The position numbers and the translations under genes are program-made. From IMG/VR virus record IMGVR_UViG_3300030117_006473, positions 1-38,699 of that record: DNA of 38,699 nt; one strand, 5' to 3'. This stretch comes from a virus (lineage: Duplodnaviria; Caudoviricetes). The stretch's first letter is position 1, and each line of letters begins with the position of its first letter. Shown piece after piece: positions 1 to 16,499 of the stretch. The notes below the pieces were generated by a model that did not search any database, had not been told where the DNA came from, and saw only the letters and a program-made list of their open reading frames with translations.

Positions 1-127
1 TATCTTTGAGTGTCTCTTGCATGAGGGGTTTCATCATCGTGTTGTGGATTAGTTTGTGCAGTAGTGCAGCATCTGACTGACTGATTTGCATGTTGAACAC
101 GAGGTCTACGTGTAGCTGAGGGTCCAT
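1..127 (-). CDS. Hypothetical early protein, partial (runs off the window edge; MDPQLHVDLVFNMQISQ...)
   Basis: ATG at 127 preceded by AGGAGA SD; frame open to position 1; not in ORF track. Confidence 0.65.
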   Translation of the reverse strand, partial: MDPQLHVDLVFNMQISQSDAALLHKLIHNTMMKPLMQETLKD

Positions 128-128
128 T

Positions 129-368
129 TCATTCTCCTGTGTGGTTAAGTGCGTCTCTCAACGCTTGGTCAATGATCCGTTTCAGACCATTGAATTTGTT
201 ACGATACTCTTCTTCTGTGTTAGCCTTAGTGATTCGTGCAGTAGCTGACCGAGGGTTCATCTGTTCGATGCGCCTCAACTCACCCAAGTCTTTCGCGGTT
301 GTCGTTAAGCTAACGAGACTGTCGTGGATGATTCGTTCCCACGATGCAAACATTTCACTGTCATTCAT
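129..368 (-). CDS. Hypothetical protein (79 aa)
   Basis: GGAGGTGA SD; ATG overlaps upstream TAA. Confidence 0.8.
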   Translation of the reverse strand: MNDSEMFASWERIIHDSLVSLTTTAKDLGELRRIEQMNPRSATARITKANTEEEYRNKFNGLKRIIDQALRDALNHTGE

Positions 369-544
369 TACTCACCTCCTTCGTCATCAAGTTGCGTCAT
401 TTCCAAATCGTCTTCAAATGCATCGGGGTCCGTTTTGTATCTTTCGAGAGTTTGAAAGATAAACTGCTCATGTAAGTCATCGAGACTGAGTGTTTCCCAA
501 ATGGCCTCAGCCAACTTGATTCGGTTTTCTGTATTGTTTTTCAT
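368..544 (-). CDS. Small acidic hypothetical protein (58 aa, MKNNTENRIK...LDDEGGE)
   Basis: Translated by hand; GGAGGTGA SD; TGATG coupling; below ORF-track cutoff. Confidence 0.8.
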   Translation of the reverse strand: MKNNTENRIKLAEAIWETLSLDDLHEQFIFQTLERYKTDPDAFEDDLEMTQLDDEGGE

Positions 545-717
545 CACTCACCTCCTTCGGTGGCTTCGCTTTGGCAGTAGGCGCAGGTAAAATACTCAGG
601 CCCAACTTTGTTGAGGTTCTCGGTTAAGTCACGGTCACCGTCTACGGTTACGTTGATATTGAACATCGCACTGTCATCCTTGTGAGATTCGCACTCAGGG
701 TTGCTACACTTGAGCAT
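544..717 (-). CDS. Small putative zinc-binding protein (57 aa, MLKCSNPEC...CAYC...EGGE)
   Basis: Translated by hand; CxxxxC and CxxC pairs; GGAGGTGA SD; TGATG coupling. Confidence 0.8.
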   Translation of the reverse strand: MLKCSNPECESHKDDSAMFNINVTVDGDRDLTENLNKVGPEYFTCAYCQSEATEGGE

Positions 718-890
718 CACTCACCTCCTGAACATGCTGGACAATCAGGCATAATGTCTGCAGCATCAACGACACTGTAAATGGGCTCGCCTCCTTCGAT
801 TCTGTCCAGTTGCTCCTTCGTGACGCTAACCTCTACAGGCTTTTCTAATGTCCATGTTTTGCCATCATCCAATACGTATATGTACGTCAT
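717..890 (-). CDS. Small hypothetical protein (57 aa, MTYIYVLDDG...CPACSGGE)
   Basis: Translated by hand; GGAGGTGA SD; TAATG coupling. Confidence 0.8.
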   Translation of the reverse strand: MTYIYVLDDGKTWTLEKPVEVSVTKEQLDRIEGGEPIYSVVDAADIMPDCPACSGGE

Positions 891-1102
891 TACTCACCTC
901 CTTTAATGTTCAACCAAGGCAGCCAATGTAGGGCTGTTAGCTTTAGCCAGTCTTGGGCTGTCTTTGCTTCGTCCCCGTGCCAGAAGACAACTCGCCTTAT
1001 GCCGGTTGGGGTGATGGCTACGTAGGCTTTGCCGTTTACTGTGGACTCAATCGGGTATCCTCTTTGTTTTGCTGTCTTCCACCAGATGTTTCGGCTTTTC
1101 AT
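890..1102 (-). CDS. Hypothetical protein (70 aa, Trp-rich; alternative start 1105)
   Basis: ORF track; GGAGGTGA SD spacing favours ATG at 1102. Confidence 0.8.
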   Translation of the reverse strand: MKSRNIWWKTAKQRGYPIESTVNGKAYVAITPTGIRRVVFWHGDEAKTAQDWLKLTALHWLPWLNIKGGE

Positions 1103-1551
1103 CATTCACCTCCTTTTGTTACTGTGAGACCTTTCTCGGTCATTGGGTTGTCGTAGATGTCTACGTCTTCAATGGTTATGATGCCGTCGAACTTGGTGCT
1201 GCCGGATCGCTGGATCTCGCGGTAAGGCATGACTGCTGAGAGTCGTCCATCGAATCGTGCTTGCCCGTTCTTGACTTTGAAGTTGCCTTTGCGGATTGCA
1301 TCAAGGTCACGGACCAGACAGTTGTACGTGGACTCGTTGATTCGATCCAGCAAGTATTGAAGTACGTTGTCAATGCCTGCTCGGCTTCGACGGTTGCTTG
1401 TGCCGTTCTCTCCTTTCTTGAGTTGACCTTCGATTGTGACGGTCATGTTGATTGGGTATGTGCCCGGAGGCAGGTCGTTCTCAAGCACATCAGCGTTCTT
1501 GCCGTTGTTGAACTTGCGAAGTGTTTCGAGGTACTTTGCATCAATTTCCAT
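1102..1551 (-). CDS. Hypothetical protein (149 aa), first gene after the internal leftward promoter
   Basis: AAGGAG SD; long ORF; promoter directly upstream. Confidence 0.85.
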   Translation of the reverse strand: MEIDAKYLETLRKFNNGKNADVLENDLPPGTYPINMTVTIEGQLKKGENGTSNRRSRAGIDNVLQYLLDRINESTYNCLVRDLDAIRKGNFKVKNGQARFDGRLSAVMPYREIQRSGSTKFDGIITIEDVDIYDNPMTEKGLTVTKGGE

Positions 1552-1578
1552 GATGTCTCCTTTTTGAGTTGTGAGGGT

Positions 1579-1607
1579 AGTATACCACAGTGGTATTCAT
1601 ATGGTAA
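1579..1607 (-). promoter_or_regulatory. Sigma70-type promoter TTACCA-17 bp-TATACT with extended -10 TG, overlapped by palindrome ATACCACAGTGGTAT
   Basis: -35 at 1607-1602, -10 at 1584-1579, exact 17-bp spacer; palindrome at 1582-1596 recurs near 4200. Confidence 0.75.
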
Positions 1608-1621
1608 TCTTTTTTCTCAGA

Positions 1622-1726
1622 TTATCCTTTAGGGTTGAGGGCAGTACACCATGCAATGCCGAAGATAGCTGTCGAGATTCCAAGTGCACCTACTTGAAAG
1701 AAGTAGATGATTGTTTCGCTTAGCAT
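1622..1726 (-). CDS. Small single-pass membrane peptide (34 aa, MLSETIIYFFQVGALGISTAIFGIAWCTALNPKG)
   Basis: AAGGAG SD before ATG 1726; one hydrophobic segment. Confidence 0.7.
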   Translation of the reverse strand: MLSETIIYFFQVGALGISTAIFGIAWCTALNPKG

Positions 1727-1727
1727 T

Positions 1728-1892
1728 TTAGTCTCCTTTTTCGGTGAGCCAGACTTGCCAGCCCGGAAGTGATTCGTAGTACTCAAGTCGGTCGAGGAAG
1801 GTTTCCTCTTCCACTTCGTCAGTGGTGATGCTGGTGAAGACTTCAAGGAAGCCGGGGTTGTTGTCAGAGGGGGCGAGGATGAGAGCGTGCAT
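1728..1892 (-). CDS. Small acidic hypothetical protein (54 aa, MHALILAPSD...)
   Basis: TAAGGAG SD before ATG 1892; the ORF-track start at 2024 overlaps the upstream gene. Confidence 0.75.
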   Translation of the reverse strand: MHALILAPSDNNPGFLEVFTSITTDEVEEETFLDRLEYYESLPGWQVWLTEKGD

Positions 1893-1902
1893 TGTGTTCT
1901 CC

Positions 1903-2130
1903 TTAGAACGGTTTGATTGAGTCAAAGATGTCAACACCCATTGCGGACATCTCTTCGCGGAGATCCCGGCAACGACGCTCGTAAGCATCGATGTTGTCTG
2001 GATCTTCGTGGGCTTCTGGCGCAAGCAGTATCTCTTGTTCCAGTTGATTCTCCAGATTAACCATGGTGAGTTGCTCTGGAGTGAGGAAGACTGGACCTTG
2101 CCAGTTCGTCATGTCGAGTAGTGAGTACAT
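1903..2130 (-). CDS. Acidic hypothetical protein (75 aa) ending DIFDSIKPF
   Basis: AGGAGA SD within the repeated leader module. Confidence 0.8.
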   Translation of the reverse strand: MYSLLDMTNWQGPVFLTPEQLTMVNLENQLEQEILLAPEAHEDPDNIDAYERRCRDLREEMSAMGVDIFDSIKPF

Positions 2131-2158
2131 TTCATTCTCCTGAGTGTTTGGTTAGGGT

Positions 2159-2476
2159 TTAGAAGGGAATCTCTGTGTCTTTGCTCAACTCGGGCCACAT
2201 GTCGTTGCGGTGGTCGCAGGTACAAACGTACTCGTCAACAGCGCCGCAGTAGATACAGTGAGCAAGGTCGGGACGATACTCGGGGTGAATGTGACCGTTG
2301 TCGAGCCAAGCGTCCCAGCACTCAGTTGGGATCTTGCGATCTTCGGCCCAGTTTTGGAAAGCGAGCCAATCAACAGCAGCAGCTTCCTGCTCAGCTTCAC
2401 GGCTGGCCTCTGCGGCACGAGGATCTTGTTGGATCATCAAGCCGATCTCAAAGTCTCGGCATTCGGAAAAAGCCAT
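2159..2476 (-). CDS. Acidic hypothetical protein (105 aa) with CxxC..CxC cluster and SSB-like C-terminus DTEIPF
   Basis: AAGGAGA SD; motifs read from translation. Confidence 0.8.
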   Translation of the reverse strand: MAFSECRDFEIGLMIQQDPRAAEASREAEQEAAAVDWLAFQNWAEDRKIPTECWDAWLDNGHIHPEYRPDLAHCIYCGAVDEYVCTCDHRNDMWPELSKDTEIPF

Positions 2477-2501
2477 GTCATTCTCCTTTGTTGGTTAGGG
2501 T

Positions 2502-2678
2502 TTAGTATTGATAGATTTCGGGTGGTTTTCCGAAGTACCACCACCCGGTGATTTTGCAGAGGTAGACCGTTACACCGCCGTAATTTTTGAGGAAGAACAT
2601 TGCGTTATCGTCATTGGCAACCTCTTTGGGAAGCAGGTCCTTTTCGAAGATCACAACGCCGTCGTAGTATGGATTCAT
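2502..2678 (-). CDS. Small hypothetical protein (58 aa, MNPYYDGVVIFEKD...PEIYQY)
   Basis: Translated by hand; AGGAGA SD within the repeated leader; fills the gap in the operon. Confidence 0.8.
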   Translation of the reverse strand: MNPYYDGVVIFEKDLLPKEVANDDNAMFFLKNYGGVTVYLCKITGWWYFGKPPEIYQY

Positions 2679-2704
2679 GTCACTCTCCTGAGTGTTTGGT
2701 TTGC

Positions 2705-2766
2705 GCTTGATTGCACACTGTAGCCATCTGACCGTGAAGCCAGATGACTACCGAATGGAATCAAAC
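2705..2766 (-). repeat. Intergenic hairpin repeat, copy A (structured RNA element)
   Basis: 17-nt flanks identical to copy B; 12-13 bp stem at 2721-2750 with G-U pairs on the minus strand. Confidence 0.9.
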
Positions 2767-3375
2767 TTGGTTGTATTTCCACTGCTCGTCGATGTGAGCG
2801 TCAGCCTCCTCCATCCACCGATCGAACTGGCTGATGAACTCCGAGGTGTCAACCAGCATGGTGCTTACGTCGTCGACCTGAACCGAACGGTCAAGGATGT
2901 CGATGTAGGGTGACTTGGGCATCTCGGAGTCAGCGTCTGCTTTCTCGGCCTTGCTGGGCCAGTAGGGACCGACGTGCTTGGAAGAAGGTCGACCCTGCCA
3001 CTCGACGTGCCGGAAGTGTTGGTTGTGGAAGAACACCGGGTTGTTGTAGAACGACTCCTTTACCCCCCAACTGTAGGTGCTCTTGCGCTGGTTGAACTCG
3101 CTGTCACCTCGAACCCAAGATTTGAGACTGCGGGGCATGCTCATCGCAATCTGCCGAGCAACCTCGATGCTCTTGCAGAGGTAGTGGAAGTGGATGTTGC
3201 CGGTGTCTGGATCGATGAGGATCATAGCGACTGTCTGCGCAATCTCTCTCCCATCCTTCAGGGTGATCTTTCCGTGGGCAACTGAGCCGTACTTCATGAA
3301 GTGCATGGTCTCGGATACCGGGATGTAGCGGGGACGGATGACGCGGCTGAGCCAAGATTGTTGTGAACGAGACAT
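2761..3375 (-). CDS. Hypothetical early protein (204 aa)
   Basis: GGAGG SD before ATG 3375; stop codon lies inside hairpin repeat A. Confidence 0.85.
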   Translation of the reverse strand: MSRSQQSWLSRVIRPRYIPVSETMHFMKYGSVAHGKITLKDGREIAQTVAMILIDPDTGNIHFHYLCKSIEVARQIAMSMPRSLKSWVRGDSEFNQRKSTYSWGVKESFYNNPVFFHNQHFRHVEWQGRPSSKHVGPYWPSKAEKADADSEMPKSPYIDILDRSVQVDDVSTMLVDTSEFISQFDRWMEEADAHIDEQWKYNQV

Positions 3376-3401
3376 AGTGACCTCCAAGGTCGTTGGTTAG
3401 T

Positions 3402-3461
3402 GCTTGATTGCACACTGTGACCATCCGACCGGAGCCGGATGATCACCGAATGGAATCAAAC
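3402..3461 (-). repeat. Intergenic hairpin repeat, copy B
   Basis: Same flanks as copy A; 12-bp stem at 3418-3445 with three compensatory base-pair changes. Confidence 0.9.
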
Positions 3462-3728
3462 GATGGTAGCGATACCTTCGACGCCGACCCAAAGTTCTTC
3501 GCGTGACTTGATGCGCAGGCCGATTGCTTTACTCAAAGCCCACAGAACGTCGTTGAATGCGTAGTAGTCTTCGAAGCCGTCCATCCCGTGGATTTTGGTG
3601 TCGAGGTCGAGGTGGTACAGTTGGTCGTGAGCCTCAAGTTCGATTTCTGTCTGCATCTCACGTAGCTTTTCGATGCTGTTCGTGGTGCTGATTTTCTCGA
3701 AGGTTTCGAGTAGTTGTGAGCAAGACAT
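3456..3728 (-). CDS. First gene of the leftward early array, acidic helical protein (90 aa, MSCSQLLETF...)
   Basis: GGAG SD before ATG 3728 in the same leader architecture as neighbours; stop codon inside hairpin repeat B. Confidence 0.8.
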   Translation of the reverse strand: MSCSQLLETFEKISTTNSIEKLREMQTEIELEAHDQLYHLDLDTKIHGMDGFEDYYAFNDVLWALSKAIGLRIKSREELWVGVEGIATIV

Positions 3729-3752
3729 AGTAAGCTCCAAGATTTGTTTGGA

Positions 3753-3959
3753 TTGATTGTTGTGTGTGACCGGGCTCGTCCCGATCACGGAATGGATGAC
3801 GCACTGGAGGAGTGGAGTGCAAGGGACTTGAGCCATTTGGAACAAATGGTTTAGGAGGGTCCGCGAGGAACGAGTGGAAACCCGAAAGGCCCTTGCATGG
3901 AAGGAGTACTGTGCGACAACCAATGGAGTGAGGGCGAGTCCGGTCACACCAACAATCAA
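3753..3959 (+). ncRNA. Candidate 207-nt structured ncRNA: long rod with 13x13-nt bubble and branched end, 13 GGA motifs
   Basis: Nested inverted repeats 3753-3781/3932-3959, 3785-3804/3911-3931 and 3818-3825/3890-3897; hairpins 3827-3855 and 3857-3883; six G-U pairs favour the + strand. Confidence 0.6.
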
Positions 3960-4199
3960 GCCACCACCAATCGCAGGTCGTTGCCACAACACCGCCCTGC
4001 CCGTACGTAGAAGTGTGGACGTTTGTACTTGGATTTAGTTAGTCTTTTCGCCGTTGTAAGTAGTTGGAAGTAGTTAGTTTTGCCGGACCCGGACTGTTTC
4101 TTTCTTTGCTGTAGAGGGGGGGGCCACCCCGACTGCCGACCATGGGTCCCTTTTTTTGTGGAGCCCTTTTCCGAACCGGACACATTTTCCAAAACACTT

Positions 4200-4249
4200 T
4201 ACCACAGTGGTATTACCATCTTGCTAAGAAAAGTACGCAGTGATACAGT
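4200..4249 (+). promoter_or_regulatory. Operator-like palindrome TACCACAGTGGTA (4200-4212) next to rightward promoter TTGCTA-17 bp-TACAGT; possible overlapping leftward extended -10 (TGGTAAAGT, 4204-4196)
   Basis: -35 at 4221-4226, TG at 4241-4242, -10 at 4244-4249, AGGAGG SD follows; 15-mer identical to 1583-1597. Confidence 0.7.
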
Positions 4250-4267
4250 TCCCCCACAGGAGGACTC

Positions 4268-4831
4268 ATGCCAAAGAAGGAAGCGTTGCACATCAAGGTA
4301 CCGGTAGACGACTACGTGTTGGATCGTCTGGACGAGGTCATCCCGGTCATCTCCGAGTCTGCGGCTGCGCGAGAGTTTGGCGTTGAGGTCACGCGCGAGA
4401 TGGTTGCCCGCATGGCCCTCGTTCGCGGACTGAAAGACCTCCGCCCTCCACCACCTGCGTCCACGAAACCGCCGACATCCCCACAAACCACAAAATCAAC
4501 GCCACCACAAACCACAGAGGCTCCAGCGGAGCCCGAAGCGCCGCGCGACAACGCAGGAATGATACGCATTCCAGATGGTTGGCATCAGTGGGGGATCAAG
4601 GAGCGGGTTCCAGAGGCTCAGTTTGACGTACATTCGTACTACGATCGTCAGGGATGGCGTCGGTACTGGGGCAAGGCGGGCGATGAGACCATGGTGTTCT
4701 ACTGGTCGCCGGACCCATCATTGCAAGATGTTGAAGCATACGACGGTCAAGATCCATCGGGTAAGACTATAAAGGTGCAGGAGACTCCGTATGGTCCGGG
4801 TCACATTGTTCCGCACGGTTGGGGTTCGTAA
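4268..4831 (+). CDS. Putative regulator: N-terminal ribbon-helix-helix-like domain, Pro/Thr linker, Trp-rich C-terminal domain
   Basis: AGGAGG SD; alternating strand LHIKVPV, helix DYVLDRLDEV and helix TREMVARMALVRGL fit an Arc/MetJ/CopG pattern (by eye). Confidence 0.6.
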   Translation: MPKKEALHIKVPVDDYVLDRLDEVIPVISESAAAREFGVEVTREMVARMALVRGLKDLRPPPPASTKPPTSPQTTKSTPPQTTEAPAEPEAPRDNAGMIRIPDGWHQWGIKERVPEAQFDVHSYYDRQGWRRYWGKAGDETMVFYWSPDPSLQDVEAYDGQDPSGKTIKVQETPYGPGHIVPHGWGS

Positions 4832-5175
4832 TGAGTATAGAGATTTCTACGCCCGCAGATGTGATGGCAACGTTGGAAGAGTTAAATCCTGAAGCAATCA
4901 TGTACGAGGGATTTGATGACGCGCTGGTTGGGATATTGGCTCGATGCGGAACTGAGCCATTGGCATTGTACGATCGAGAACGATGCATTCAGATCTTGAT
5001 GAGCAAAGGGTTGACTCCCGAAGATGCGGAGGACTACTTCTGCTACAATGTTGAGGGTTGCTACGCGGGGCCCCACACACCCTTCATCGCATCATTCAAC
5101 CTCGATCCTGTGGGGGTCCCACGGACGCTAAACGATGTTGAGACAGAGATTCTTGTCGGCGTGAAGGAGGATTGA
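4831..5175 (+). CDS. Conserved phage hypothetical protein (114 aa; GFDDALVG...YD...EDY.CYNVEG.Y.G..TP)
   Basis: TAATG coupling; motif pattern recalled from many aquatic phage hypothetical proteins. Confidence 0.8.
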   Translation: MSIEISTPADVMATLEELNPEAIMYEGFDDALVGILARCGTEPLALYDRERCIQILMSKGLTPEDAEDYFCYNVEGCYAGPHTPFIASFNLDPVGVPRTLNDVETEILVGVKED

Positions 5176-5360
5176 TGCCTCTGTATGTATTTAAGTGCGA
5201 AGACTGCGGAAAGAGAATTGAAAAGCTCATGCCGTTTGACGGCCCCACACCTTCTTGCGAGCACTGCTTGTGTGAGATGAAGAAGCAGATTGCAGCAACC
5301 AGCTTTACGCTCAAGGGCTCAGGCTGGGCAAAAGACAATTATGGGCTTAAATCGGACTGA
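5175..5360 (+). CDS. FmdB-family zinc-ribbon protein
   Basis: MPLYVFKCEDCG...CEHC...MKKQI...F.LKGSGW signature; GGAGG SD. Confidence 0.9.
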   Translation: MPLYVFKCEDCGKRIEKLMPFDGPTPSCEHCLCEMKKQIAATSFTLKGSGWAKDNYGLKSD

Positions 5361-5394
5361 CCATGTTACACTGGATTCGGTGTAGGAGTTTACG

Positions 5395-5571
5395 ATGGCA
5401 AAGTTCCCTGATTTAAGCGGCGACGGCAAAGTCACACAGAAAGACATTTTGATGGGCAAGGGCGTGATCAAGGGTCCCAAAGCCTCGAAGAAAAGTCCTA
5501 CCGACAAAACTCGACGAGGCAAGATAGCCGAGGCAATGAAACAATCTCAAGTAGCTAAGAAGATGGTTTGA
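5395..5571 (+). CDS. Small basic protein with EF-hand/dockerin-like loop (58 aa, MAKFPDLSGDGKVTQKDILMGKG...)
   Basis: Translated by hand; AGGAG SD; extended -10 TGTTACACT at 5364-5372. Confidence 0.8.
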   Translation: MAKFPDLSGDGKVTQKDILMGKGVIKGPKASKKSPTDKTRRGKIAEAMKQSQVAKKMV

Positions 5572-5572
5572 T

Positions 5573-7744
5573 ATGTCAGATGTAAAAGGTCGCATGTCTT
5601 TTGAAGACGCTATGTCTACGGACCCGAACGAGTTCGAGCGATTGATGCTCGAAAAACGAAAGTCGACTTCGATGCCGAGCTTGATTCCTGAAGAGTTCAA
5701 GGCAGAAGATCGTGCCCTGACAGAGTCAGAGGAAGCAGAGGCTCAAGAAATTGCAACCGGTATGAAGCGTAGAGACACAGCGCAGCGCGTTCAGGACTTG
5801 GGTGAAGAGCTTAGCCTTGCTGGTTTGGCTCCTACGGTCTCAGGTCAAGTGACCGGATTTGTAGGGGATCTTTTGTACTCGGGAGGCGCTGGAGCGCGGT
5901 TTCTGATGGGGGAGGAAGGAGCAGGGACTGAGGCTGCCATGGGCCTTGCTGCTGCGGCACTTCCGATTATTCCTATTGCGGGATTTGCCCGTGCGCTCAA
6001 GAGGCTTCGAGAGAATCCAGATGCGCCTGCAACTCGCGAAGCTCGTGAGTTGTATCAGACATATGTTGATCGTGTGAAGGCAGGTGAGTTGTCACCAGAA
6101 GATGCAGCCACCGAGTTGAAGCCTTTGATGGACGACGCAGGTAAGCAAGCAGCGTATGAGGGTATGTCGGCTAGAAATGAAGCTGCTGCGGCTGCTCGCG
6201 GTGCAAAGACAAGACTTACGCCACAGCAGATTCAAAAAACTTTGTCTCGGGAGCGTCAAGCTTCAGACGAAGCATCAAAACGGGCCGCGATGTCGACACG
6301 TCAGACCGATCCTACCGATATGGATTTGTACGGAAAGGCAAGTGTTGGCGAGTTTGCGGGCGGTGCGGGCACGTTTACTCCCGGAGGAAGGGCAAGAGAT
6401 CTTGATGAAGCTAAGCGTTTGAGGGGTTCAAGGAAGGATCCGGCACAGGAGTATGGTTCTGGTGAGGCTCCTGTTGGACCACGTACGGCAATCATTGGCG
6501 GTAAAAAGATGTTTGCTCGTCCGGGGGCTGCGGGGGAGTTGTCGAAGCTTCGTCAGGAGTGGCGTAAGCGTGGCCGTAAAGACAAGAAGGGCAATCCATC
6601 TCCGCTTCCAACAGAGGCCGATGTGCCGAGCTTCTTTGTGAGTGAGCGTCAATACAAGAGTATGGTCAGCGCAGCAAGCCGAGACCCGAACGCAGCAAGA
6701 AAGCTTCGCAGTCGCAGAGTGAAGAAACTGGCCGGACAACAAGAGGCGCTAGAGGCTGATCGGGCCAAGCGCGCTGCTGCTGAGGCGGCGAAGAGACCTA
6801 CTCAGTACAATGAGCTTGAGATGGAGTTTATTCAGGGCGTGCCAAAGGAACAACAGAACGCGGCGCGTAAGCTAATAGATGAACAAAAAGCTGCGGGGCA
6901 GATGGTTGCAAAAGACGCAAAGGGTCAGTTTGGTTTCCGGCCCACCGGTTCGGGTATGACTCAAGCTACTCAAGGTAAAAAAAAAGTAAGTGACCCTTCG
7001 GGGGAGCCACCGAAGGACGTTGCGGTTGATGAACCCAAAATAAGCGGGTCAAAAATAAACACGCCTAACTTTAAATCTTGGTTTGGTCGGGGCGTTATTG
7101 CCAAAAATTCTGGTGAGCCGATACCGTTGTACCACTCAACAACCAAGAGCTTTGACGCATTCGAGCCCTCTAAAGAGGGATTGATGGGGCCCGGAATTTA
7201 CACATCATTATCGAGCAAGCACGTAAATGATTACATTGTAGATAAAGAAAAACGGACAATAAGGCGTGGCGCTAATGTTATTCCTTTATTTAGCAGCATT
7301 CGCAATCCTGCGTTTTTGTTGGACCCTATCGGGAAGGATCGTCTCGATCCCATACTGAGGAAGTTGTCCGATGCTGGAATAGAAGTTTCTCCTCGTTCTC
7401 CTGATGGAATCAACTCATACTGGGATTTGTTGACCTCACTTCCGGCAGAAGATCGAGCTATCAATGTTCGTGGTAAGAAAATTATAAACGAGGCCCTTCA
7501 AGATATGGGTCACGACTCATCCATATTTTCAAGAAGGAATGATTTCATACGTTACAGGGCATCAAACTTTGTTGATACTCCAGAAGACATGCACGTTCTG
7601 GTTTTCGATCCAACCAATGTGAAGTCACCTTATAACAAAGGAACCTTCGACCCGACCGACCCATCGATTCTGAAGGGCATCGGAGTAGGCGCAACAATCC
7701 CCGCCGCTACTGCCGCACGCTCTCAGCGACAAGAGGAAGGGTAG
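5573..7744 (+). CDS. 723-aa protein with C-terminal ADP-ribosyltransferase-like (ART-PolyVal-type) domain
   Basis: Motifs FKSWFG, P.PLYHST..F..F, GPGIYT, VIPLF..IRNP, GHDS and VFDPTNVKS..NKGTFDP.DP.I at about 7061-7672; Gly/Ala hydrophobic helices near the N-terminus. Confidence 0.8.
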   Translation: MSDVKGRMSFEDAMSTDPNEFERLMLEKRKSTSMPSLIPEEFKAEDRALTESEEAEAQEIATGMKRRDTAQRVQDLGEELSLAGLAPTVSGQVTGFVGDLLYSGGAGARFLMGEEGAGTEAAMGLAAAALPIIPIAGFARALKRLRENPDAPATREARELYQTYVDRVKAGELSPEDAATELKPLMDDAGKQAAYEGMSARNEAAAAARGAKTRLTPQQIQKTLSRERQASDEASKRAAMSTRQTDPTDMDLYGKASVGEFAGGAGTFTPGGRARDLDEAKRLRGSRKDPAQEYGSGEAPVGPRTAIIGGKKMFARPGAAGELSKLRQEWRKRGRKDKKGNPSPLPTEADVPSFFVSERQYKSMVSAASRDPNAARKLRSRRVKKLAGQQEALEADRAKRAAAEAAKRPTQYNELEMEFIQGVPKEQQNAARKLIDEQKAAGQMVAKDAKGQFGFRPTGSGMTQATQGKKKVSDPSGEPPKDVAVDEPKISGSKINTPNFKSWFGRGVIAKNSGEPIPLYHSTTKSFDAFEPSKEGLMGPGIYTSLSSKHVNDYIVDKEKRTIRRGANVIPLFSSIRNPAFLLDPIGKDRLDPILRKLSDAGIEVSPRSPDGINSYWDLLTSLPAEDRAINVRGKKIINEALQDMGHDSSIFSRRNDFIRYRASNFVDTPEDMHVLVFDPTNVKSPYNKGTFDPTDPSILKGIGVGATIPAATAARSQRQEEG

Positions 7745-7789
7745 GCATGTTATACTTTCTTATAGCTCAGGCCGTCGGGGGTCTCTTAT

Positions 7790-8746
7790 TTACCCTTTTC
7801 GAAGGATTTCTGCTTCTCGTTGAGCTTCCATCTTTCGTGCGAACATCATCTCTTCGAACGTACGAGGCTCACCACCTTCTGTAGCTGCAGCGGTGTCCGG
7901 CTTCATGTTCATGAGCTTCATGCCTTCAGGAACTGGTTCGGGCTCAGGCTCTGGCTCGGGTTCTGGTTCAGCTTTTGGCTGGGTGTCATACAGTGCTCGG
8001 GCGACTCGAACGGCGTTATCGACCGTCTTACCGTTCTTCCACTGTTCGAGGAACTCGTCAAATGCCTCGTCATTTTCGTAGATGTCGTTGGCGTTTGCGA
8101 CCAAGTACTGTTCAAGCTTGTCGACTTCTTGTTCCGTGATGGCTTTGTCGAACTCGTCGAGTTGATTTTGCATCTCGACGGTTTGTTGAATCGCAGCGTC
8201 TCGTTCTTTGATGGCTTCCTCGTACTGGTCGCCGAAAGTCGTCTTTGACTTTTCGTGTGCGGCTTCTGCTTGCTCGCGAAGAGTCTGCAGTGCGACTTCG
8301 TGGCTGAGCTTGAGGTTGTCGATTTCTTTTTGTTTGTCGAGAAGTGGATCAACGTCTCCGTGCATCCATTGCATTGCACGCTTCTGTTCTTGTCGAGCAG
8401 CCTCCATCAGCTTGTTTGCTTCGCGTTTTTGACTCGCAAGTTCGTCAAACTTCTTTTGGTATCCGCGCGCCCAGTTGTTGTACTTGGTTTCGAAACCACG
8501 GTCGATGGCTCCGCGCAAGGGTTCATTGAGTTCGTTGTACCACTGCTCTGTTCGGAGACTTTCAAGCTCTCCATTCCAGTCAAAGACTTCAGGAGCGGAC
8601 TCTACCTCTTCGTCCGCTCCCTCGTCTGCGCTGGCTTCAACAGTTGGTTCAGATTCTACCGGAGCCTCAGCAGGTTCCTCTGCGACGGCTTCATCCGCCA
8701 CTTCAGCCTGCCCACCGTCAACAGCTTCGTTATCCTCTTCCCACAT
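7790..8746 (-). CDS. Putative capsid scaffolding protein (318 aa, acidic coiled-coil, (EP)n linker)
   Basis: Acidic disordered N-terminus, helical core, co-transcribed with portal; AAGGG SD. Confidence 0.6.
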   Translation of the reverse strand: MWEEDNEAVDGGQAEVADEAVAEEPAEAPVESEPTVEASADEGADEEVESAPEVFDWNGELESLRTEQWYNELNEPLRGAIDRGFETKYNNWARGYQKKFDELASQKREANKLMEAARQEQKRAMQWMHGDVDPLLDKQKEIDNLKLSHEVALQTLREQAEAAHEKSKTTFGDQYEEAIKERDAAIQQTVEMQNQLDEFDKAITEQEVDKLEQYLVANANDIYENDEAFDEFLEQWKNGKTVDNAVRVARALYDTQPKAEPEPEPEPEPEPVPEGMKLMNMKPDTAAATEGGEPRTFEEMMFARKMEAQREAEILRKG

Positions 8747-8748
8747 GC

Positions 8749-9201
8749 TTACATCCCTTCTGGCGGCATCATCATTTCTGGTTGTGCCATCTCTGGCATC
8801 GCCCCTGCAGCAGGCGGTTCCATAGCGCCACCGTCACCACGGGCTGCCACCATTTCAAGCTGCATGAGCACATCAAAGTCGGTTGAAATCATATCGGCAA
8901 GTTCTTGGGCGGTTTTGCCCTGAGTCTTACCAAGTTGTTGTGCGGCATCGAAAAGCATCTTTGCCCTCTCTTCGGTGACGCCAAGAGTTTCAATCAATGG
9001 GCTGAGATCTTCAGCCGCTTCTTCGGCCATAGCTTCTTCTGCAGGCTTTTCCATTTCAGCCGCTGCGTCGTCCATTTCTGCGTCTTCGTCTTCAGACATT
9101 TCGGCACCACCTTCAAAAGCAGCCTTCATTTCTTCCATGCTTGGAAGATTCTTGTCTTCAGTCTTCATCTCTTCTTTCATTTCTTCTTTCATCTCAGCCA
9201 T
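8749..9201 (-). CDS. Highly acidic Met/Glu/Ala-rich hypothetical protein (150 aa)
   Basis: AGGA SD; extended -10 upstream; contiguous with scaffold-like gene. Confidence 0.8.
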   Translation of the reverse strand: MAEMKEEMKEEMKTEDKNLPSMEEMKAAFEGGAEMSEDEDAEMDDAAAEMEKPAEEAMAEEAAEDLSPLIETLGVTEERAKMLFDAAQQLGKTQGKTAQELADMISTDFDVLMQLEMVAARGDGGAMEPPAAGAMPEMAQPEMMMPPEGM

Positions 9202-9226
9202 GATCGTATCCTATTGCGTTACGGTA

Positions 9227-9235
9227 ATTTTACCA
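9227..9235 (-). promoter_or_regulatory. Extended -10 promoter (TGGTAAAAT) for the scaffold pair
   Basis: Near-consensus TGnTAnAAT in a 43-bp intergenic gap. Confidence 0.55.
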
Positions 9236-9244
9236 CTACGGTTA

Positions 9245-9499
9245 TTATTTTGTTCGAGACTTACTCTCGAAAATGTCAGGGTTCATCAATTCGAACGCGG
9301 CGTTGATTCCGATTGAACGAATAAATTTGTTTGGTACGGTGAAGCGTTCACCAGTCCTTCGGTCTTCGATAACCTTGCTATCTCGGATTGTGTCGTCTTT
9401 TACAGTTCTTAGAGATCTACTTTTCTTGTCTGCTTTGAACTCAGCGAGTTCAACAAGTTCAAGGTCAGACAGTCTGCTTCGAATACTTGGGTCGGGCAT
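9245..9499 (-). CDS. Hypothetical protein (84 aa)
   Basis: GGAGG SD; TGATG coupling. Confidence 0.75.
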   Translation of the reverse strand: MPDPSIRSRLSDLELVELAEFKADKKSRSLRTVKDDTIRDSKVIEDRRTGERFTVPNKFIRSIGINAAFELMNPDIFESKSRTK

Positions 9500-9960
9500 C
9501 ACTTACCTCCCACGAGTTGAGCCGCACTACCTTCGAGTTTACGTCCTTCGGCTTTGAGGGCCTTTCTTTCGGTAGACACTTCTTTGAGTATTTTGTCGTT
9601 AAGGCTTTTAGCCTTCTTACGTTTCCAACTATTGTGTCGAATTGTATCCAAGCGTTCAGCTTTTTGAGCTTGTGTCTCTTCTTGAATGTTGACGCGCTTT
9701 CCGGGAAAACGTTTTTGAATTGTTTCGATGCACCGGTCGTAGTCTTCTTTAGTCTCTGCTTTGCCCAGAACACCAAAGTCGACAGCCGCAAAAGATCCGG
9801 GGCCTTGGCCGTGGATAGCGTAACGAAACCCTCGAAAGCTCATCTCCCGCGCGCTTCCGCATTCGGGACACTTGGGTGGTCCTTCTGATCGACGATACAT
9901 TGCTTCTTCTTCGAAGAAGTCGCAGCCTGTGCATTGTAAGTTATTGATTATGTAGCTCAT
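9499..9960 (-). CDS. Zinc-ribbon (FmdB-like N-terminus) protein with basic C-terminal extension (153 aa)
   Basis: CTGC...CPECGS; ATGA overlap with upstream gene. Confidence 0.8.
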   Translation of the reverse strand: MSYIINNLQCTGCDFFEEEAMYRRSEGPPKCPECGSAREMSFRGFRYAIHGQGPGSFAAVDFGVLGKAETKEDYDRCIETIQKRFPGKRVNIQEETQAQKAERLDTIRHNSWKRKKAKSLNDKILKEVSTERKALKAEGRKLEGSAAQLVGGK

Positions 9961-10100
9961 TTTTTGTATCCGCCTCGGGGTCCCAGCTTGCCTTTACGTT
10001 TCATGGTGAGAGCAATTGCAACAGCTTGTTTCCGAGGCTTTCCTTCTTTCTTGAGTTTCTTTACTTTGCGATTAACCGCTGTTTTCTTTCCGTAGCTCAT
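9957..10100 (-). CDS. Very basic small protein (47 aa, MSYGKKTAVNRKVKKLKKEGKPRKQAVAIAL...)
   Basis: Translated by hand; EGKP.KQAVAIAL motif typical of small phage basic proteins; ATGA overlaps on both sides. Confidence 0.85.
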   Translation of the reverse strand: MSYGKKTAVNRKVKKLKKEGKPRKQAVAIALTMKRKGKLGPRGGYKK

Positions 10101-10357
10101 TTCTTCTTTCCGCCTTTTTTGTGCAGTCCATGTTTCGCGAACTGCTTACCCTTACGGGTAGCCTTTCTTTTCTTTCTTGTGGCTGCAGCAATCTTTGCTC
10201 GACCTGATTTGCTTGCTTTCAGTCGATTGATTTTTGCTCTTGGTGCGTAGACTTCACCCGAAGCTTTTGGTCCTTGAACACTGGGCTTGCCTGAAGGTGT
10301 TGTCCAGTCTTGCTTCGTCCACGTTTTAAGGGACTTCTGAGAGGCTTTGAGTGCCAT
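10097..10357 (-). CDS. Very basic protein (86 aa), resembles the C-terminal half of DUF5872-type proteins
   Basis: SQKSLK.WTKQDW.T..GK...GE.Y.P motif; family name recalled, not searched. Confidence 0.75.
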   Translation of the reverse strand: MALKASQKSLKTWTKQDWTTPSGKPSVQGPKASGEVYAPRAKINRLKASKSGRAKIAAATRKKRKATRKGKQFAKHGLHKKGGKKK

Positions 10358-10542
10358 TACTTATAGCCCCCGCCCTTACGCTTGTATGCGGCAGCAAGCA
10401 TTTGAGCTTTTCGAGCAGACCACTGTCCGGGCCGACCACCCTTTCCTCCGGCTTTGATGCGGTTGAACAGCCGCTTGCGCATTCCCGGCTTGGTGTAGTT
10501 ACCTGCTTCGTTTACGCGGCTCTTGGTTTTTTTCTTTGCCAT
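10357..10542 (-). CDS. Very basic protein (61 aa), resembles the N-terminal half of DUF5872-type proteins
   Basis: YTKP..RKRL...GGKGG.PGQWSARKAQML...Y...GGGY motif; TAATG coupling; family name recalled, not searched. Confidence 0.8.
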   Translation of the reverse strand: MAKKKTKSRVNEAGNYTKPGMRKRLFNRIKAGGKGGRPGQWSARKAQMLAAAYKRKGGGYK

Positions 10543-10868
10543 TACCATTTCACCTTGTCTGCCCAGTAAGCTGCGCTCATCTTACCGCGAGCAATGTTCT
10601 TCGAGTGTCTTGCTTTGAATGATTTTCTTTTGGCTTTCATTCTTGCGGACTCACCTTTCTTGGGTGCGCCTGCAGTTCCTGAAACTGATCCGACTCGTTT
10701 ACCTTGCTGACCAAATCGAATGAGTTTTATCTGGCTTCCCTCTTGAGCAAGCACGATATGGCTCTTCTTAGGATGTTTAGGTGTTCTTTTCGCGTTGTTT
10801 GCGCCCTTCAAGCCGTGCTTCTTTAGAAGTCTGGCTTTTCGCATTTTGTCTCGTTTAGACAAAGCCAT
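10542..10868 (-). CDS. Very basic conserved viral protein (108 aa; IRFGQQG...RKSFKARH...SAAYWA.K.KW)
   Basis: GAGGTGA SD; motif pattern recalled from phage and giant-virus small proteins. Confidence 0.85.
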   Translation of the reverse strand: MALSKRDKMRKARLLKKHGLKGANNAKRTPKHPKKSHIVLAQEGSQIKLIRFGQQGKRVGSVSGTAGAPKKGESARMKAKRKSFKARHSKNIARGKMSAAYWADKVKW

Positions 10869-10878
10869 ACATCACCTC

Positions 10879-12630
10879 TCAAGCTTCACCCGTCGGGGGT
10901 AGTTGTCCTGAAGCAGCAAGCTCTTGTTCCAGTTGAAGAAGTTCCTCTTCAGACAAGCTGTCGATTACTTGTTGCGCTTCGGCCTCTTCGGTAGCTTGCT
11001 CTTGAGCCTCGATTGCAGGCTTACCGGCAGCAGCACCCCCAAGTTTCGCTTGAGCCTCAGCTTGCATAGCGGCTTGCTGTTGAGCCATCGCCTCTTGCTT
11101 CATCGCCTCTAGTTCGGCCTCTGGGATTACGATACGTCGTGACAAGCCCATTCCACCGACCACTTCTTCGGTCAACTTGCGGATGTCTACGTTTTCGTTT
11201 TGTGTCAGGAACGGAATCATCTGAATCAGGCTCTCGATCATCACAGCCGGGTTCTTTCGAATCGGGTTGTACGAGACCATCTCAAAATCAACCTCAATGT
11301 TTCGCAGATCTTTGTGACCTAGCTCAGACCACCGCTTGTCCCCTGCGATACGGATGAGGCGAGGCTTCCGCATATACTTTTTAGTAAGGTAAAAAGCTTT
11401 TCGTGCAACGTCTTCGATGGCATCATTGAGGTGCCCTTCTCGTGTTGCAAGTCGTGTTCGCATTTGGGCGTCGATGATTGCCATCTCCGTGGCTGTCCGA
11501 GCACCGACAACCTGTCCTCGGGCGGCCTCAGCAAGTGCTGAAATAAAAGCAGCATCGTCTTCCTGTCGAGCGATGAACTCTTTAACACCCGTTGGGGCAT
11601 CTGGGATGGGCATTTCGTAGAACAATGTAGCCAAGCTTCGAAGTGTCTCACTGTTTGACGGATTGATTCCGATGAACGCGCCAGCACTGGCTTCGACAGC
11701 TTTGTTCAGGTCCTCTTCTGTGACTCGTCCTGAATCGTACAGGATCCTCGGAATCTGAAGATAGGTGATTTGTTTCATGTGAGTCAGCAAGTCGTTGATG
11801 GTTTCTTGCTGTTTCAATACCAATTGAACTTCACTCAAACCAAGGCAGTCAATGCCAGATTGGTTGAGGCTGAACATCGAGTATGGGATGTAGTCAATTT
11901 TGTCTTCGAACACTACGGCGTCAGCTTGCTTCACATAGTGTTGTACGATTCCGCGTTCACGATCGTAGTACTCGTAGATGGTGACCCACTTGAATGCATC
12001 ACGCAGTTGTTGTGTGTCGCTGCTTTGATTCTGATCTTGCAGCCACTTCGGGTACCGATCGGGTTGGACATCGGTCACAAGTTCTGCTTTGTACAAACCT
12101 GCACGCACACGGTTCTTGAACTCGTCAAAAGAGATAACGGTGGCTTCAATCCAGTATCGAATGTCGTCTTGATCCCGAACCGTCAGGTCAAAAAACACGG
12201 ATGATGGATTGACCGCACGAATGACGGGGATGTCTCGTTGTGCGTCCCAGCCGGTCTTGAAAATGCCACGCTTACAGAGAACCGCGTCGATCAAGGCTGT
12301 TGCTGCTTTTCGACGAAACCGATTGGTTTGGAAGACATACTCAAGCAGGCCGGACACAGAGGTAGCAGACTCTTGAGATTGAGGTGTACGTGCGACAGCA
12401 GCAACAGATGGGTTGGGTCCAAGCAGAGCACTGACCGCAGTGTCAGCAATCGCGTAGATCATGTTCTTAGAGCAAAGGTACGAATCCAGTCGTGTGTTGC
12501 TCAGGTCGCTATCAGAACTCGTAAAGAAATCGCCTCGGTAGAATCGTCGAGCTTTGTCAAACTGACGCTTCTCTGATCGCTTGTAGTACGTCAGGTGCCG
12601 GTCGATCAGCTTTGAGAGTTTTGATGCCAT
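10879..12630 (-). CDS. Portal protein (podovirus/P22-like)
   Basis: 583 aa; downstream of terminase; RTATE motif, IYEYYD, Q..IN helix and Gln/Ala-rich C-terminal barrel helix. Confidence 0.9.
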   Translation of the reverse strand: MASKLSKLIDRHLTYYKRSEKRQFDKARRFYRGDFFTSSDSDLSNTRLDSYLCSKNMIYAIADTAVSALLGPNPSVAAVARTPQSQESATSVSGLLEYVFQTNRFRRKAATALIDAVLCKRGIFKTGWDAQRDIPVIRAVNPSSVFFDLTVRDQDDIRYWIEATVISFDEFKNRVRAGLYKAELVTDVQPDRYPKWLQDQNQSSDTQQLRDAFKWVTIYEYYDRERGIVQHYVKQADAVVFEDKIDYIPYSMFSLNQSGIDCLGLSEVQLVLKQQETINDLLTHMKQITYLQIPRILYDSGRVTEEDLNKAVEASAGAFIGINPSNSETLRSLATLFYEMPIPDAPTGVKEFIARQEDDAAFISALAEAARGQVVGARTATEMAIIDAQMRTRLATREGHLNDAIEDVARKAFYLTKKYMRKPRLIRIAGDKRWSELGHKDLRNIEVDFEMVSYNPIRKNPAVMIESLIQMIPFLTQNENVDIRKLTEEVVGGMGLSRRIVIPEAELEAMKQEAMAQQQAAMQAEAQAKLGGAAAGKPAIEAQEQATEEAEAQQVIDSLSEEELLQLEQELAASGQLPPTGEA

Positions 12631-12632
12631 GA

Positions 12633-12806
12633 TTATTGCTCCGGTCGCGGTCTCTGTTCTTTGATCGAGCCGTCAGGATTAAACATCCCACGAATCAACT
12701 TAGACTCATTATATGCCTGCTGAAACTGTGCAAGCTGATCACCCTCAAGCGCAAGACCTGTAAGGTTCAAAACGTCATCATCGGGCTGTTCTGGGGCATC
12801 AGCCAT
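12633..12806 (-). CDS. Small acidic hypothetical protein (57 aa, MADAPEQPDDDVLNL...)
   Basis: Translated by hand; TGATG coupling; exactly fills the gap before the portal. Confidence 0.7.
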   Translation of the reverse strand: MADAPEQPDDDVLNLTGLALEGDQLAQFQQAYNESKLIRGMFNPDGSIKEQRPRPEQ

Positions 12807-13003
12807 CACTCAGACTCGTTAGCTTCTTTGAGAGCTTTTAAAAGAGCAGATTTTTCTTCGACATCTTTCTTCTTAGCTTCGGCTTTTGCCTTGTCCATTG
12901 TAGAGGCATCGTCAGGAAGCTTCTCGTTTGGTTTAAACGTACTCACGGGAGAGTAGCTTTTCTCTTGAGCGCGCTTGGATACTTTTTTCTTGGTTCCGGG
13001 CAT
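12806..13003 (-). CDS. Small Lys-rich hypothetical protein (65 aa)
   Basis: GGAG SD before ATG 13003. Confidence 0.75.
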   Translation of the reverse strand: MPGTKKKVSKRAQEKSYSPVSTFKPNEKLPDDASTMDKAKAEAKKKDVEEKSALLKALKEANESE

Positions 13004-13005
13004 GG

Positions 13006-14655: not shown

Positions 14656-14661
14656 GCGGTA

Positions 14662-14670
14662 ACCATATCA
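14662..14670 (-). promoter_or_regulatory. Extended -10 (TGATATGGT) 6 nt upstream of the terL ATG; probable leaderless promoter
   Basis: No SD before ATG 14655; spacing places the transcription start on the A of ATG. Confidence 0.5.
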
Positions 14671-14837
14671 CGTAATCGAAATACAAAATCAGGTTTGTTT
14701 ATTGCTCACTAGAGCCACATGTTGTATACCTTAACCACGCACCCAATTCGCGGTCGGGTAGCTCATGGAGTCCGACGATAACGCACCGGGCAGGCGGATC
14801 GTAGTTTTTTCCTTCAAACACAATCTGTGAGAACAAA

Positions 14838-15887: not shown

Positions 15888-15898
15888 GGAGGTAAATC

Positions 15899-16429
15899 AT
15901 GGCTGGTTCTTTTACTACTGGTGCAAGTGTTGTTGACGGATCTGATGCCGTAAGCCCATTTGCCGCAGTTTACGATAATGAAGTTTACCCTTTGGGTACT
16001 CTTCGGACTCAACCTGCGGACGAGGTTGTTGCTTCAAATTCCACTCATTCTGGTGATCGGACTTGGGTCTTCGTTTTTAACGACGAAGCATCAACTGCTT
16101 TCGCTCAGGGAGACCTTATTTCGATTGATACAGGCGACTACGCTGCGTTCAACGGAATTGTGTCTGCTGCAGCAGCAACGTCTGCCGGTTTGATCCTTGG
16201 GGTAGCCGGAGGCGCGATTGCAGCCGGTAAGTACGGTTGGATCATTAAGTCAGGCATTTGCGAGGCCAAGGGTGACGGCAGCGTCAACCAAGGCGAGTTA
16301 ATTGTTTCTCACACTTCAGGTCAGGTTGATACCATGGGCTCTGGAGAGGAAGCTGCAATTATCGGCGTTGCTCTTGAGGATGATGGTTCTGCAGGCGCTT
16401 TGTTTACCGTTAAGGTCGACATCCCGTAG
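15899..16429 (+). CDS. Capsid decoration/cement-like protein
   Basis: TAAGGAGGT SD; directly follows MCP; Gly/Ala-rich beta protein with GVA...I.AG.YGWI...G and IIGVALE motifs. Confidence 0.75.
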   Translation: MAGSFTTGASVVDGSDAVSPFAAVYDNEVYPLGTLRTQPADEVVASNSTHSGDRTWVFVFNDEASTAFAQGDLISIDTGDYAAFNGIVSAAAATSAGLILGVAGGAIAAGKYGWIIKSGICEAKGDGSVNQGELIVSHTSGQVDTMGSGEEAAIIGVALEDDGSAGALFTVKVDIP

Positions 16430-16451
16430 TCATTGACTTCGTGATACACTT

Positions 16452-16490
16452 GAGGGGCGTAGCTTTCGGGTTACGCCCCTCTCGTCTTTT
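16452..16490 (+). terminator. Intrinsic terminator-like hairpin after the capsid genes (probably leaky)
   Basis: GAGGGGCGTAGCT-TTCG-GGTTACGCCCCTC 13-bp stem followed by an interrupted T tract TCGTCTTTT. Confidence 0.75.
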
Positions 16491-16499
16491 GGAGGCTTT

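What the first reader, a model, noticed from the sequence alone, without database searches (positions are those of the whole stretch)
3753..3959. 207-nt rod-shaped non-coding element displaying GGA motifs: candidate phage decoy RNA (CsrA/RsmA sponge or 6S-like)
Seen: the ends pair almost perfectly (3753-3781 with 3932-3959). Inside are an imperfect stem (3785-3804/3911-3931) with GGA opposite GGA, a symmetric 13x13-nt purine-rich bubble (TGGAGGAGTGGAG 3805-3817 / TGGAAGGAGTACT 3898-3910), an 8-bp stem (TGCAAGGG/CCCTTGCA) and two terminal hairpins whose loops carry GGA. I count 13 GGA triplets in 3789-3927 (about 2 expected at uniform composition), six of them ANGGA, mostly in or at the edge of unpaired segments. 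Six G-U wobbles occur on the + strand and no A-C oppositions, so the folded strand is probably +, antisense to the early genes. Known: CsrB/RsmZ-type sRNAs titrate CsrA through many exposed GGA motifs; 6S RNA is a roughly 200-nt rod with a central bubble that traps RNA polymerase; T4 RegB cuts GGAG. Inference: a phage-encoded decoy RNA, perhaps protecting the GGAG-rich ribosome-binding sites of the adjacent early genes. I recognise no named RNA family with this architecture, and I found no clear + strand promoter upstream.
Basis: partly seen in the sequence, partly recalled or inferred. Interest (0 to 1): 0.88.

Follow-up and report, generated by a model that had tools for sequence, protein, structure and literature searches.

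The report
Modular phage RNA mimicking ribosomal site

Summary
The rod at 3753-3959 is real: -105 kcal/mol, z -9.6, with 13 GGA. It is one of 31 distinct rods, 154-225 nt, found at the same place in related marine phages. All 31 fold better on the + strand, and the helices covary (17 of 34 pairs, 0 of 500 shuffles). In the single RNA run found, the only near-identical piece in window 1-20000 is 151 nt lying inside the rod. The CsrA reading fails: relatives have a median of 4 GGA against 5.7 expected, and 7 of the 13 GGA are kept in none of 13 aligned relatives. There is no Rfam match. What is kept is an outer stem and a small tip motif that matches the uS8-binding core of 16S rRNA helix 21: strictly in 11 of 31 rods (background 2-3.5%), loosely in 29 of 31 (background 7-10%; descriptor widened after seeing the data). 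Best reading: a + strand phage ncRNA, likely a protein decoy, with uS8 as the leading target (0.3). Binding, strand and promoter are not shown.

The parts
3753..3959 (+). Rod-shaped element, likely a non-coding RNA
   Evidence: own covariance model R1 finds one copy in the window
3764..3788 (+). 5' arm of the constant outer stem (CCGGG...UCCCG), pairing with 3928-3949; can also fold on itself as a 9-bp hairpin, more stably on the - strand
3928..3949 (+). 3' arm of the outer stem; sequence varies among relatives, pairing kept, often by G-U
3793..3825 (+). Middle module, 5' strand: helix, purine-rich 13-nt loop strand (3805-3817), 8-bp helix; swappable among relatives
3890..3922 (+). Middle module, 3' strand, including loop strand 3898-3910
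3827..3855 (+). Optional side hairpin (absent in L057, L060, L067, L075, L080, L089, L090)
3857..3883 (+). Tip hairpin with uS8-site-like core: G3859-C3881 (=G597-C643), U3860-A3878 (=U598-A640), bulged A3879/A3880 (=641/642), G3858-C3882 (=596-644)
   Evidence: the MFE itself gives this register; natural helix 21 cores; counts
3759..3909 (.). 151-nt contig, no mismatch, in seawater metatranscriptome X1; strand not informative
3456..3728 (-). First small ORF of the leftward early cluster, GGAG at 3735-3738; antisense neighbour of the rod
   Evidence: sequence; no Pfam or PHROG match
4115..4190 (.). Conserved G-run / GGWCCC / GGGCC block; possible genome end or packaging site; hairpin plus T-run on + in some relatives
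   Evidence: role inferred
4200..4212 (.). Palindromic operator-like word, second copy at 1583-1595, overlapping -10-like hexamers
   Evidence: role inferred
4268..4831 (+). Conserved 187-aa gene of unknown function, used as anchor to find relatives
   Evidence: no fold match at E<=0.001

Best explanation
The element is a conserved, + strand-folding rod of a marine phage family, likely transcribed as a stable non-coding RNA, whose tip copies the uS8-binding core of 16S rRNA helix 21 and is predicted to bind host ribosomal protein uS8 as a decoy. Shown: conserved position, covarying helices, strand bias, constant outer stem, swappable middle and tip modules, and the helix-21-like core. Hinted: expression (one RNA run). 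Inferred: the outer stem protects the RNA or marks it for processing out of a longer + strand transcript; the tip presents the G597-C643 / U598-A640 / bulged 641-642 core; bound uS8 would be withheld from new 30S assembly and, in hosts that regulate as E. coli does, from repression of the spc operon, shifting host translation resources during infection.
For: Family: 33 of 37 distinct loci with enough upstream DNA carry the rod, giving 31 distinct rods. All 31 are more stable on +, z -3.3 to -10.9, with no conserved open frame. Covariation: 17 of 34 pairs change on both sides in 14 aligned rods, 0 of 500 shuffles, and slid controls give 4-8. RNA: of 63 records laid on window 1-20000, the only one at 99% or more is the 151-nt piece inside the rod; a random piece of that size in the 2.6 kb searched would fall there 2.3% of the time. 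uS8 core: strict descriptor in register in 11 of 31 rods versus 3.5% of 9300 stem-preserving shuffles, 13 of 418 and 17 of 796 genome windows, and 2 of 31 minus strands. In module A the 641-equivalent varies A/U (6:4), as in real 16S (U in E. coli; A in 25 of 25 other 16S loci). The G596-C644 and A596.C644 forms also occur in natural 16S (L114, L110). Tip loops vary from 3 to about 30 nt while the core letters stay. A helix-21 fragment suffices for uS8 binding (PMC4176348, Introduction; PMC10931766, passages).
Against: No binding data. The strict match covers one module family, so it is about one event at p near 0.03. Reaching 29 of 31 needed three relaxations made after seeing the data (background 7-10%), and two of those hits (L055, L082) pair a non-homologous partner. 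Modules A, B and C share loop pieces and may have one ancestor. Module A lacks the bulged A595 of the A595-(A596-U644) triple, and in the window only 3 pairs lie between core and junction. A stricter pairing-probability test supported the strict core in only 5 of 30 rods; L057, L079 and L080 fold as well or better in another register, and module C can pair without a bulge. The rods share no more 8-10-mers with E. coli rRNA than with shuffled rRNA. More distant relatives lack the rod and show only background-level motif hits. No + strand promoter was found. The RNA evidence is one read-length contig of depth 3.6 in one run, strand unknown.
Confidence: 0.3

Rival explanations
1. It is a + strand decoy or scaffold RNA for some other host protein, most likely a defence or RNA-processing factor, and the helix-21 likeness is a generic bulge motif. 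Module swapping would reflect an arms race, as with pseudo-ToxI and RNA anti-CRISPRs.
For: Mosaic modules in a constant stem; position at the head of a cluster of small unknown early genes; other structured cassettes occupy the same interval in other relatives; precedents seen as search listing and abstract start only (PMC3594212, PMC10651486).
Against: No likeness to any Rfam family at threshold; no target can be named; does not explain why the kept tip letters are those of the uS8 core.
Confidence: 0.25
2. It works like 6S RNA: a promoter-mimicking rod with a central bubble that traps host sigma-70 RNA polymerase.
For: Length, closing stem of about 45 nt, 12x12 to 13x13 loop and apical arm in the window fit the 6S outline (PMC8876501 passages, which also note low sequence identity among 6S RNAs). 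12 of 31 rods have a loop of 10x10 or more. No RNA polymerase was found among 72 of 94 ORFs scanned in complete relative G052.
Against: No RF00013 match at E<=10; model R1 does not hit E. coli ssrS; relatives such as L004, L013, L054 and L091 are near-continuous rods with loops of 4-7 nt; the loop strands are purine-rich and may form G.A pairs (inference). The loop metric scored E. coli 6S only 8x9, so it is weak either way.
Confidence: 0.17
3. It is a cis or antisense control element of the leftward early operon: a - strand leader from the operator-linked promoter carries a small hairpin before the first ribosome-binding site, and a + strand RNA pairs with it; variable interiors would define immunity groups.
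For: Lies 15 nt from the first early RBS; the 5' arm forms its own conserved hairpin, more stable on - in the window (-15.9 vs -9.3); two small stems before other early genes fold on -; an operator-like word overlaps -10-like hexamers.
Against: The whole rod folds better on + in 31 of 31; a very stable rod with few conserved loops is a poor antisense RNA (established knowledge); in the L057-type the small hairpin has a mismatch on either strand.
Confidence: 0.12
4. It is a single-stranded DNA structure (priming signal, or signal near the genome end), not an RNA.
For: Folds as DNA too (-56.8 on +, -48.3 on -); lies 160-400 nt from a conserved block where contigs L048 and L049 begin; G-T wobbles are also tolerated in DNA.
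Against: The only matching piece in an RNA library covers just this element; strand asymmetry excludes a cruciform; mosaic interiors are unexpected for an origin read by the phage's own primase (inference).
Confidence: 0.1
5. It is a CsrA/RsmA sponge.
For: 13 GGA and 6 ANGGA in the window copy, more than shuffles give (16 of 2000); 6 of the 13 have all three bases mostly unpaired.
Against: Family median 4 GGA versus 5.7 expected; only 8 of 31 rods have a GGA wholly in a hairpin loop; 7 of 13 window GGA are kept in 0 of 13 aligned relatives; no RF00018 or RF00166 match.
Confidence: 0.04

Closest known systems
uS8 binding site of 16S rRNA helix 21 and of the E. coli spc (rplE) mRNA
   Same: Helix with G597-C643, U598-A640, bulged 641 (A/U) and A642, and a 596-644 pair, in module A including the window copy.
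   Different: No bulged A595 in module A; one extra base in module B; G640 in module C; sits at the tip of a free phage rod rather than in rRNA or a ribosomal-protein operon; binding untested.
6S RNA (RF00013)
   Same: About 200-nt rod, closing stem, central two-sided loop and apical arm in the window copy.
   Different: No covariance-model match; large loop absent in many relatives; phage-borne; modular interior.
CsrB / RsmY / RsmZ (RF00018, RF00166)
   Same: The window copy is GGA-rich.
   Different: One long rod rather than many short GGA-capped hairpins (that architecture is recalled); GGA not conserved; no model match.
Phage decoy RNAs: pseudo-ToxI (PMC3594212), Racrs (PMC10651486), rAcrIIA1 (10.64898/2026.06.03.729762)
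   Same: Phage-encoded small RNAs that mimic a host RNA to occupy its protein (seen as listing and abstract start only).
   Different: Those copy antitoxin or CRISPR RNAs; this one has no such likeness in Rfam and would copy an rRNA site.

Membership tests
CsrB/RsmY/RsmZ | Many conserved GGA/ANGGA motifs exposed in hairpin loops | tested here: not met
   1 of 13 GGA wholly in a hairpin loop in the window; 8 of 31 rods have any; median 4 GGA vs 5.7 expected
CsrB/RsmY/RsmZ | Match to RF00018 or RF00166 | tested here: not met
   none at E<=10 (the RF00166 control had no genome over the cut-off)
CsrB/RsmY/RsmZ | Binds CsrA/RsmA | not testable with these tools
   needs a gel shift
6S RNA | About 200-nt rod with closing stem and apical arm | tested here: met
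6S RNA | Conserved large central bubble | tested here: inconclusive
   12 of 31 rods at 10x10 or more, but E. coli 6S itself scored 8x9
6S RNA | Match to RF00013 | tested here: not met
   (control over cut-off in 4 of 14 genomes)
6S RNA | Binds sigma-70 holoenzyme and templates pRNA | not testable with these tools
   needs in vitro assay
uS8 binding site (helix 21 type) | G597-C643, U598-A640, bulged 641 and invariant A642 within a helix | tested here: met
   window 3857-3883 in the MFE register; strict in 11 of 31 rods, 5 of 30 under a stricter probability filter
uS8 binding site (helix 21 type) | A595-(A596-U644) base triple with bulged 595 | tested here: not met
   in module A the 595-equivalent G pairs with C645; the AAG/CU arrangement is present in module B
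uS8 binding site (helix 21 type) | Binds uS8 | not testable with these tools
Retron msr-msd RNA | Linked reverse transcriptase gene | tested here: not met
   none among 30 window ORFs or 72 of 94 ORFs of complete relative G052

The most novel reading that the evidence does not exclude
These phages keep a locus of interchangeable structured-RNA cassettes next to their early genes, and the commonest cassette is an rRNA mimic that captures host ribosomal protein uS8: a phage RNA that steers ribosome assembly or ribosomal-protein operon control by molecular mimicry.
Probability: 0.25. Interest if true: 0.9.

Novelty: new variant of a known kind. Interest (0 to 1): 0.64.

Why it matters
Known phage decoy RNAs copy antitoxin or CRISPR RNAs. 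Four full-text searches listed no phage RNA that copies a ribosomal-protein site, judged from titles and abstract starts. If uS8 binding holds, it is a new way for a phage to act on host translation, and it can be tested with one purified protein and a 30-nt hairpin. If it fails, there remains an Rfam-negative family of 31 covarying phage rods with mix-and-match modules and a first hint of expression in seawater, plus further uncharacterised cassettes at the same locus.

Tried and rejected
Rfam: nothing at gathering score in the window; nothing at E<=10 for 2600-4300 or 3740-3975; only sub-threshold generic hairpin hits for L004 and L042. No blastn match in 50,697 GenBank phages. No tRNA or tmRNA. 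Coding: ORFs 3456-3992 and 3658-3987 cross the rod, but open frames are not kept (0-3 per strand, lengths vary freely). General rRNA mimicry: shared 8-, 9- and 10-mers 230, 66 and 20 versus 224, 66 and 17 with shuffled rRNA, so eye-catching words shared with 5S loop E, helix 44, the L1 stalk or SRP RNA (the last recalled) were dropped as chance. Hammerhead and SRP cores (recalled) do not fit. Model R1 found nothing in 141 genomes of G001's phylum (no positive control), nor in G054 or E. coli ssrS. Host: one weak hit of the anchor gene's N-terminal 66 residues in a Sandaracinaceae MAG and no names in clusters; the host is unknown. The 187-aa neighbour has no fold match. The lack of RNA cover elsewhere in window 1-20000 does not prove those parts are silent (contigs only). 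Fremin 2023 (PMC10690425): six short family words had no hit in the three supplements that could be searched; the zip archives, one spreadsheet and the large files could not be searched, so part of this rod may be among its candidates. Earlier scan notes: none found.

Full report
OBSERVATION. On the + strand 3753-3959 folds at -105.4 kcal/mol (z -9.64, 0 of 200 shuffles), on the - strand at -87.8. It has a long closing stem, a purine-rich two-sided loop (3805-3817/3898-3910), an 8-bp helix and a three-way junction with two hairpins. It holds 13 GGA and 6 ANGGA, the densest stretch of the window. The enrichment is smaller than claimed: shuffles give 6.4-7.9, and 16 of 2000 dinucleotide shuffles reach 13. 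Only one GGA lies wholly in a hairpin loop.

CONTEXT. The window is a phage record judged 54% complete with portal, terminase and major capsid genes. The rod lies between a leftward cluster of small unknown genes and a rightward 187-aa gene whose 62 homologues come from metagenomes, several from Tara. A relative judged 100% complete (G052, 73.7 kb) has DNA polymerase A, primase-helicase and SSB. No reverse transcriptase, RNA polymerase, CsrA, ribosomal protein or integrase appeared among the 72 (Pfam) and 53 (PHROG) of its 94 listed ORFs that I scanned. The host is unknown; one weak hit in a Sandaracinaceae MAG is only a lead.

FAMILY. The anchor gene and a conserved operator-like pattern gave 4, 29, 9 and 41 loci (overlapping sets). 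The 70 stored loci with the pattern reduce to 41 distinct ones. Four are too short upstream. Of the other 37, 33 carry the rod about 400-490 nt before the pattern (32 by motif, L060 added by hand), and four (L025, L061, L074, L093 groups) carry other structured cassettes. After removing identical copies there are 31 rods of 154-225 nt. All 31 are more stable on +, with z from -3.3 to -10.9. In 14 aligned rods, 92% of cells pair and 17 of 34 pairs change on both sides; 0 of 500 shuffles reach this and slid controls give 4-8. Related sequences inflate that test, and the structure came from one member. A covariance model built from those 14 scores the divergent rods at 17-69 bits and finds one copy per genome; it finds none in the more distant relatives searched.

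ANATOMY. Constant: an outer stem with CCGGG paired to CCUGG (G-U in 22 of 29 at the third position) and UCCCG paired to a G-rich strand. Variable: at least four middle modules and three tip modules (A, B, C, my labels), recombined in different combinations, for example L090 joins the window-type middle to tip B. The 5' arm can also fold on itself, and RNAalifold prefers that hairpin in the sequence-only alignment.

EXPRESSION. One search for RNA runs with window 2600-5200 returned one seawater metatranscriptome. Its only piece on that stretch is a 151-nt contig without mismatch at 3759-3909. On window 1-20000 it remains the only record at 99% identity or more among 63 laid. Chance placement inside the rod is 2.3%. 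This is one run, one read-length contig, depth 3.6, strand unknown: a hint.

CsrA READING. Rejected. The family median is 4 GGA against 5.7 expected, and 8 of 31 rods have one in a hairpin loop. Seven of the window's 13 GGA occur in none of 13 aligned relatives; the best kept (3876, 12 of 13) is paired. RF00018 and RF00166 do not match.

6S READING. The window copy has the outline described for 6S RNA (PMC8876501, passages read), but RF00013 does not match and several relatives have no large loop (the metric undercalls E. coli 6S). It stays a rival.

THE TIP MOTIF. I noticed from memory that module A resembles the uS8 site of 16S helix 21 and then tested it. E. coli 594-600 reads UAAGUCA and 638-645 UGAUACUG. 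PMC4176348 (Introduction and passages) names the determinants: a G597-C643 pair with 641, invariant A642, and an A595-(A596-U644) triple. In the window the MFE pairs G3859-C3881 and U3860-A3878 with A3879 and A3880 bulged, the same register. In 25 other 16S loci, 21 read AAGUC/GAAACU; one has the G596-C644 of module A and one the A596.C644 of L057. Position 641 is A in those 25 and U in E. coli; in module A it is A in 6 and U in 4. A strict descriptor is met in register by 11 of 31 rods, against 3.5% of stem-preserving shuffles, 2-3% of genome windows and 2 of 31 minus strands. Allowing A.C, G640 and one inserted base gives 13, 18 and 29 of 31, against 7-10%. Against: those relaxations were fitted afterwards; two loose hits use a non-homologous partner; the modules may share an ancestor; module A has no bulged 595; other registers fold as well in L057, L079, L080 and module C; a stricter probability filter kept 5 of 30; and the rods show no general excess of rRNA words. 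The motif is a specific, testable lead, not a demonstration.

MECHANISM. [quoted passage not shown] Titrating it would be expected to slow new 30S assembly or lift spc repression; both are inferences. How the RNA is made is unexplained: no consensus + strand promoter lies upstream, so read-through from far upstream with processing at the outer stem is inferred. A hairpin with a T-run on + before the next promoter in some relatives fits + strand transcription ending there, but it is not clear in all.

NOVELTY. No Rfam family and no GenBank phage match. Literature searches listed decoy RNAs against toxin-antitoxin and CRISPR systems but none copying a ribosomal-protein site; most papers were seen as listings only. 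The alignments of the 10,006 candidate viral RNAs of PMC10690425 could not be searched, so a fragment may be listed there. Verdict: a real, apparently undescribed modular phage RNA family; a new variant of the phage decoy-RNA kind; interest 0.64.

Noticed in passing
window 2703-2767 and 3401-3462: Two related imperfect stems just before early genes; they fold on the - (mRNA) strand (-33 vs -19/-22 kcal/mol), one with a UCCG loop. Similar stems precede early genes in relatives. Possibly RNase III-type processing or stabilising sites.
   Followed up: partly
window 1583-1595 and 4200-4212: Identical 13-bp palindromic word overlapping -10-like hexamers of likely leftward promoters; conserved in relatives. 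Likely an operator.
   Followed up: partly
window 4115-4190; starts of L048 and L049: Conserved G-run / GGWCCC / GGGCC block; two contigs begin inside it. Possible genome end or packaging site.
   Followed up: partly
L002 2755-3034 and equivalents in L003, L004, L021, L022 and others: A second 280-nt symmetrical element with 7-12 copies of a 7-bp word in both orientations, in the early region of many relatives but not in the window. Looks like an iteron-type DNA element.
   Followed up: partly
L034, L035, L037, L038, L040-L042 (about 1200 nt before the anchor gene); L061, L074, L093: Other structured cassettes fill the same interval, shared in mosaic between phages; some windows reach z -5 to -13. 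No Rfam match for L042. Suggests a hot spot of RNA cassettes worth its own study.
   Followed up: partly
window 5573-7744 and 28831-37314: A 723-aa protein with an ART-PolyVal ADP-ribosyltransferase domain, and a 2827-aa protein with phage tail lysozyme and Rho_N domains; in G052 a Rho_N domain sits in the protein at the first of these positions.
   Followed up: no
L128 3305-3399 and 9176-9262 (G054): ARAGORN calls a tRNA with anticodon TTA (would read TAA) and a tRNA-Leu; not checked.
   Followed up: no
L124 6469-8095 (G052): Two DUF2589 genes flanking an unknown ORF.
   Followed up: no
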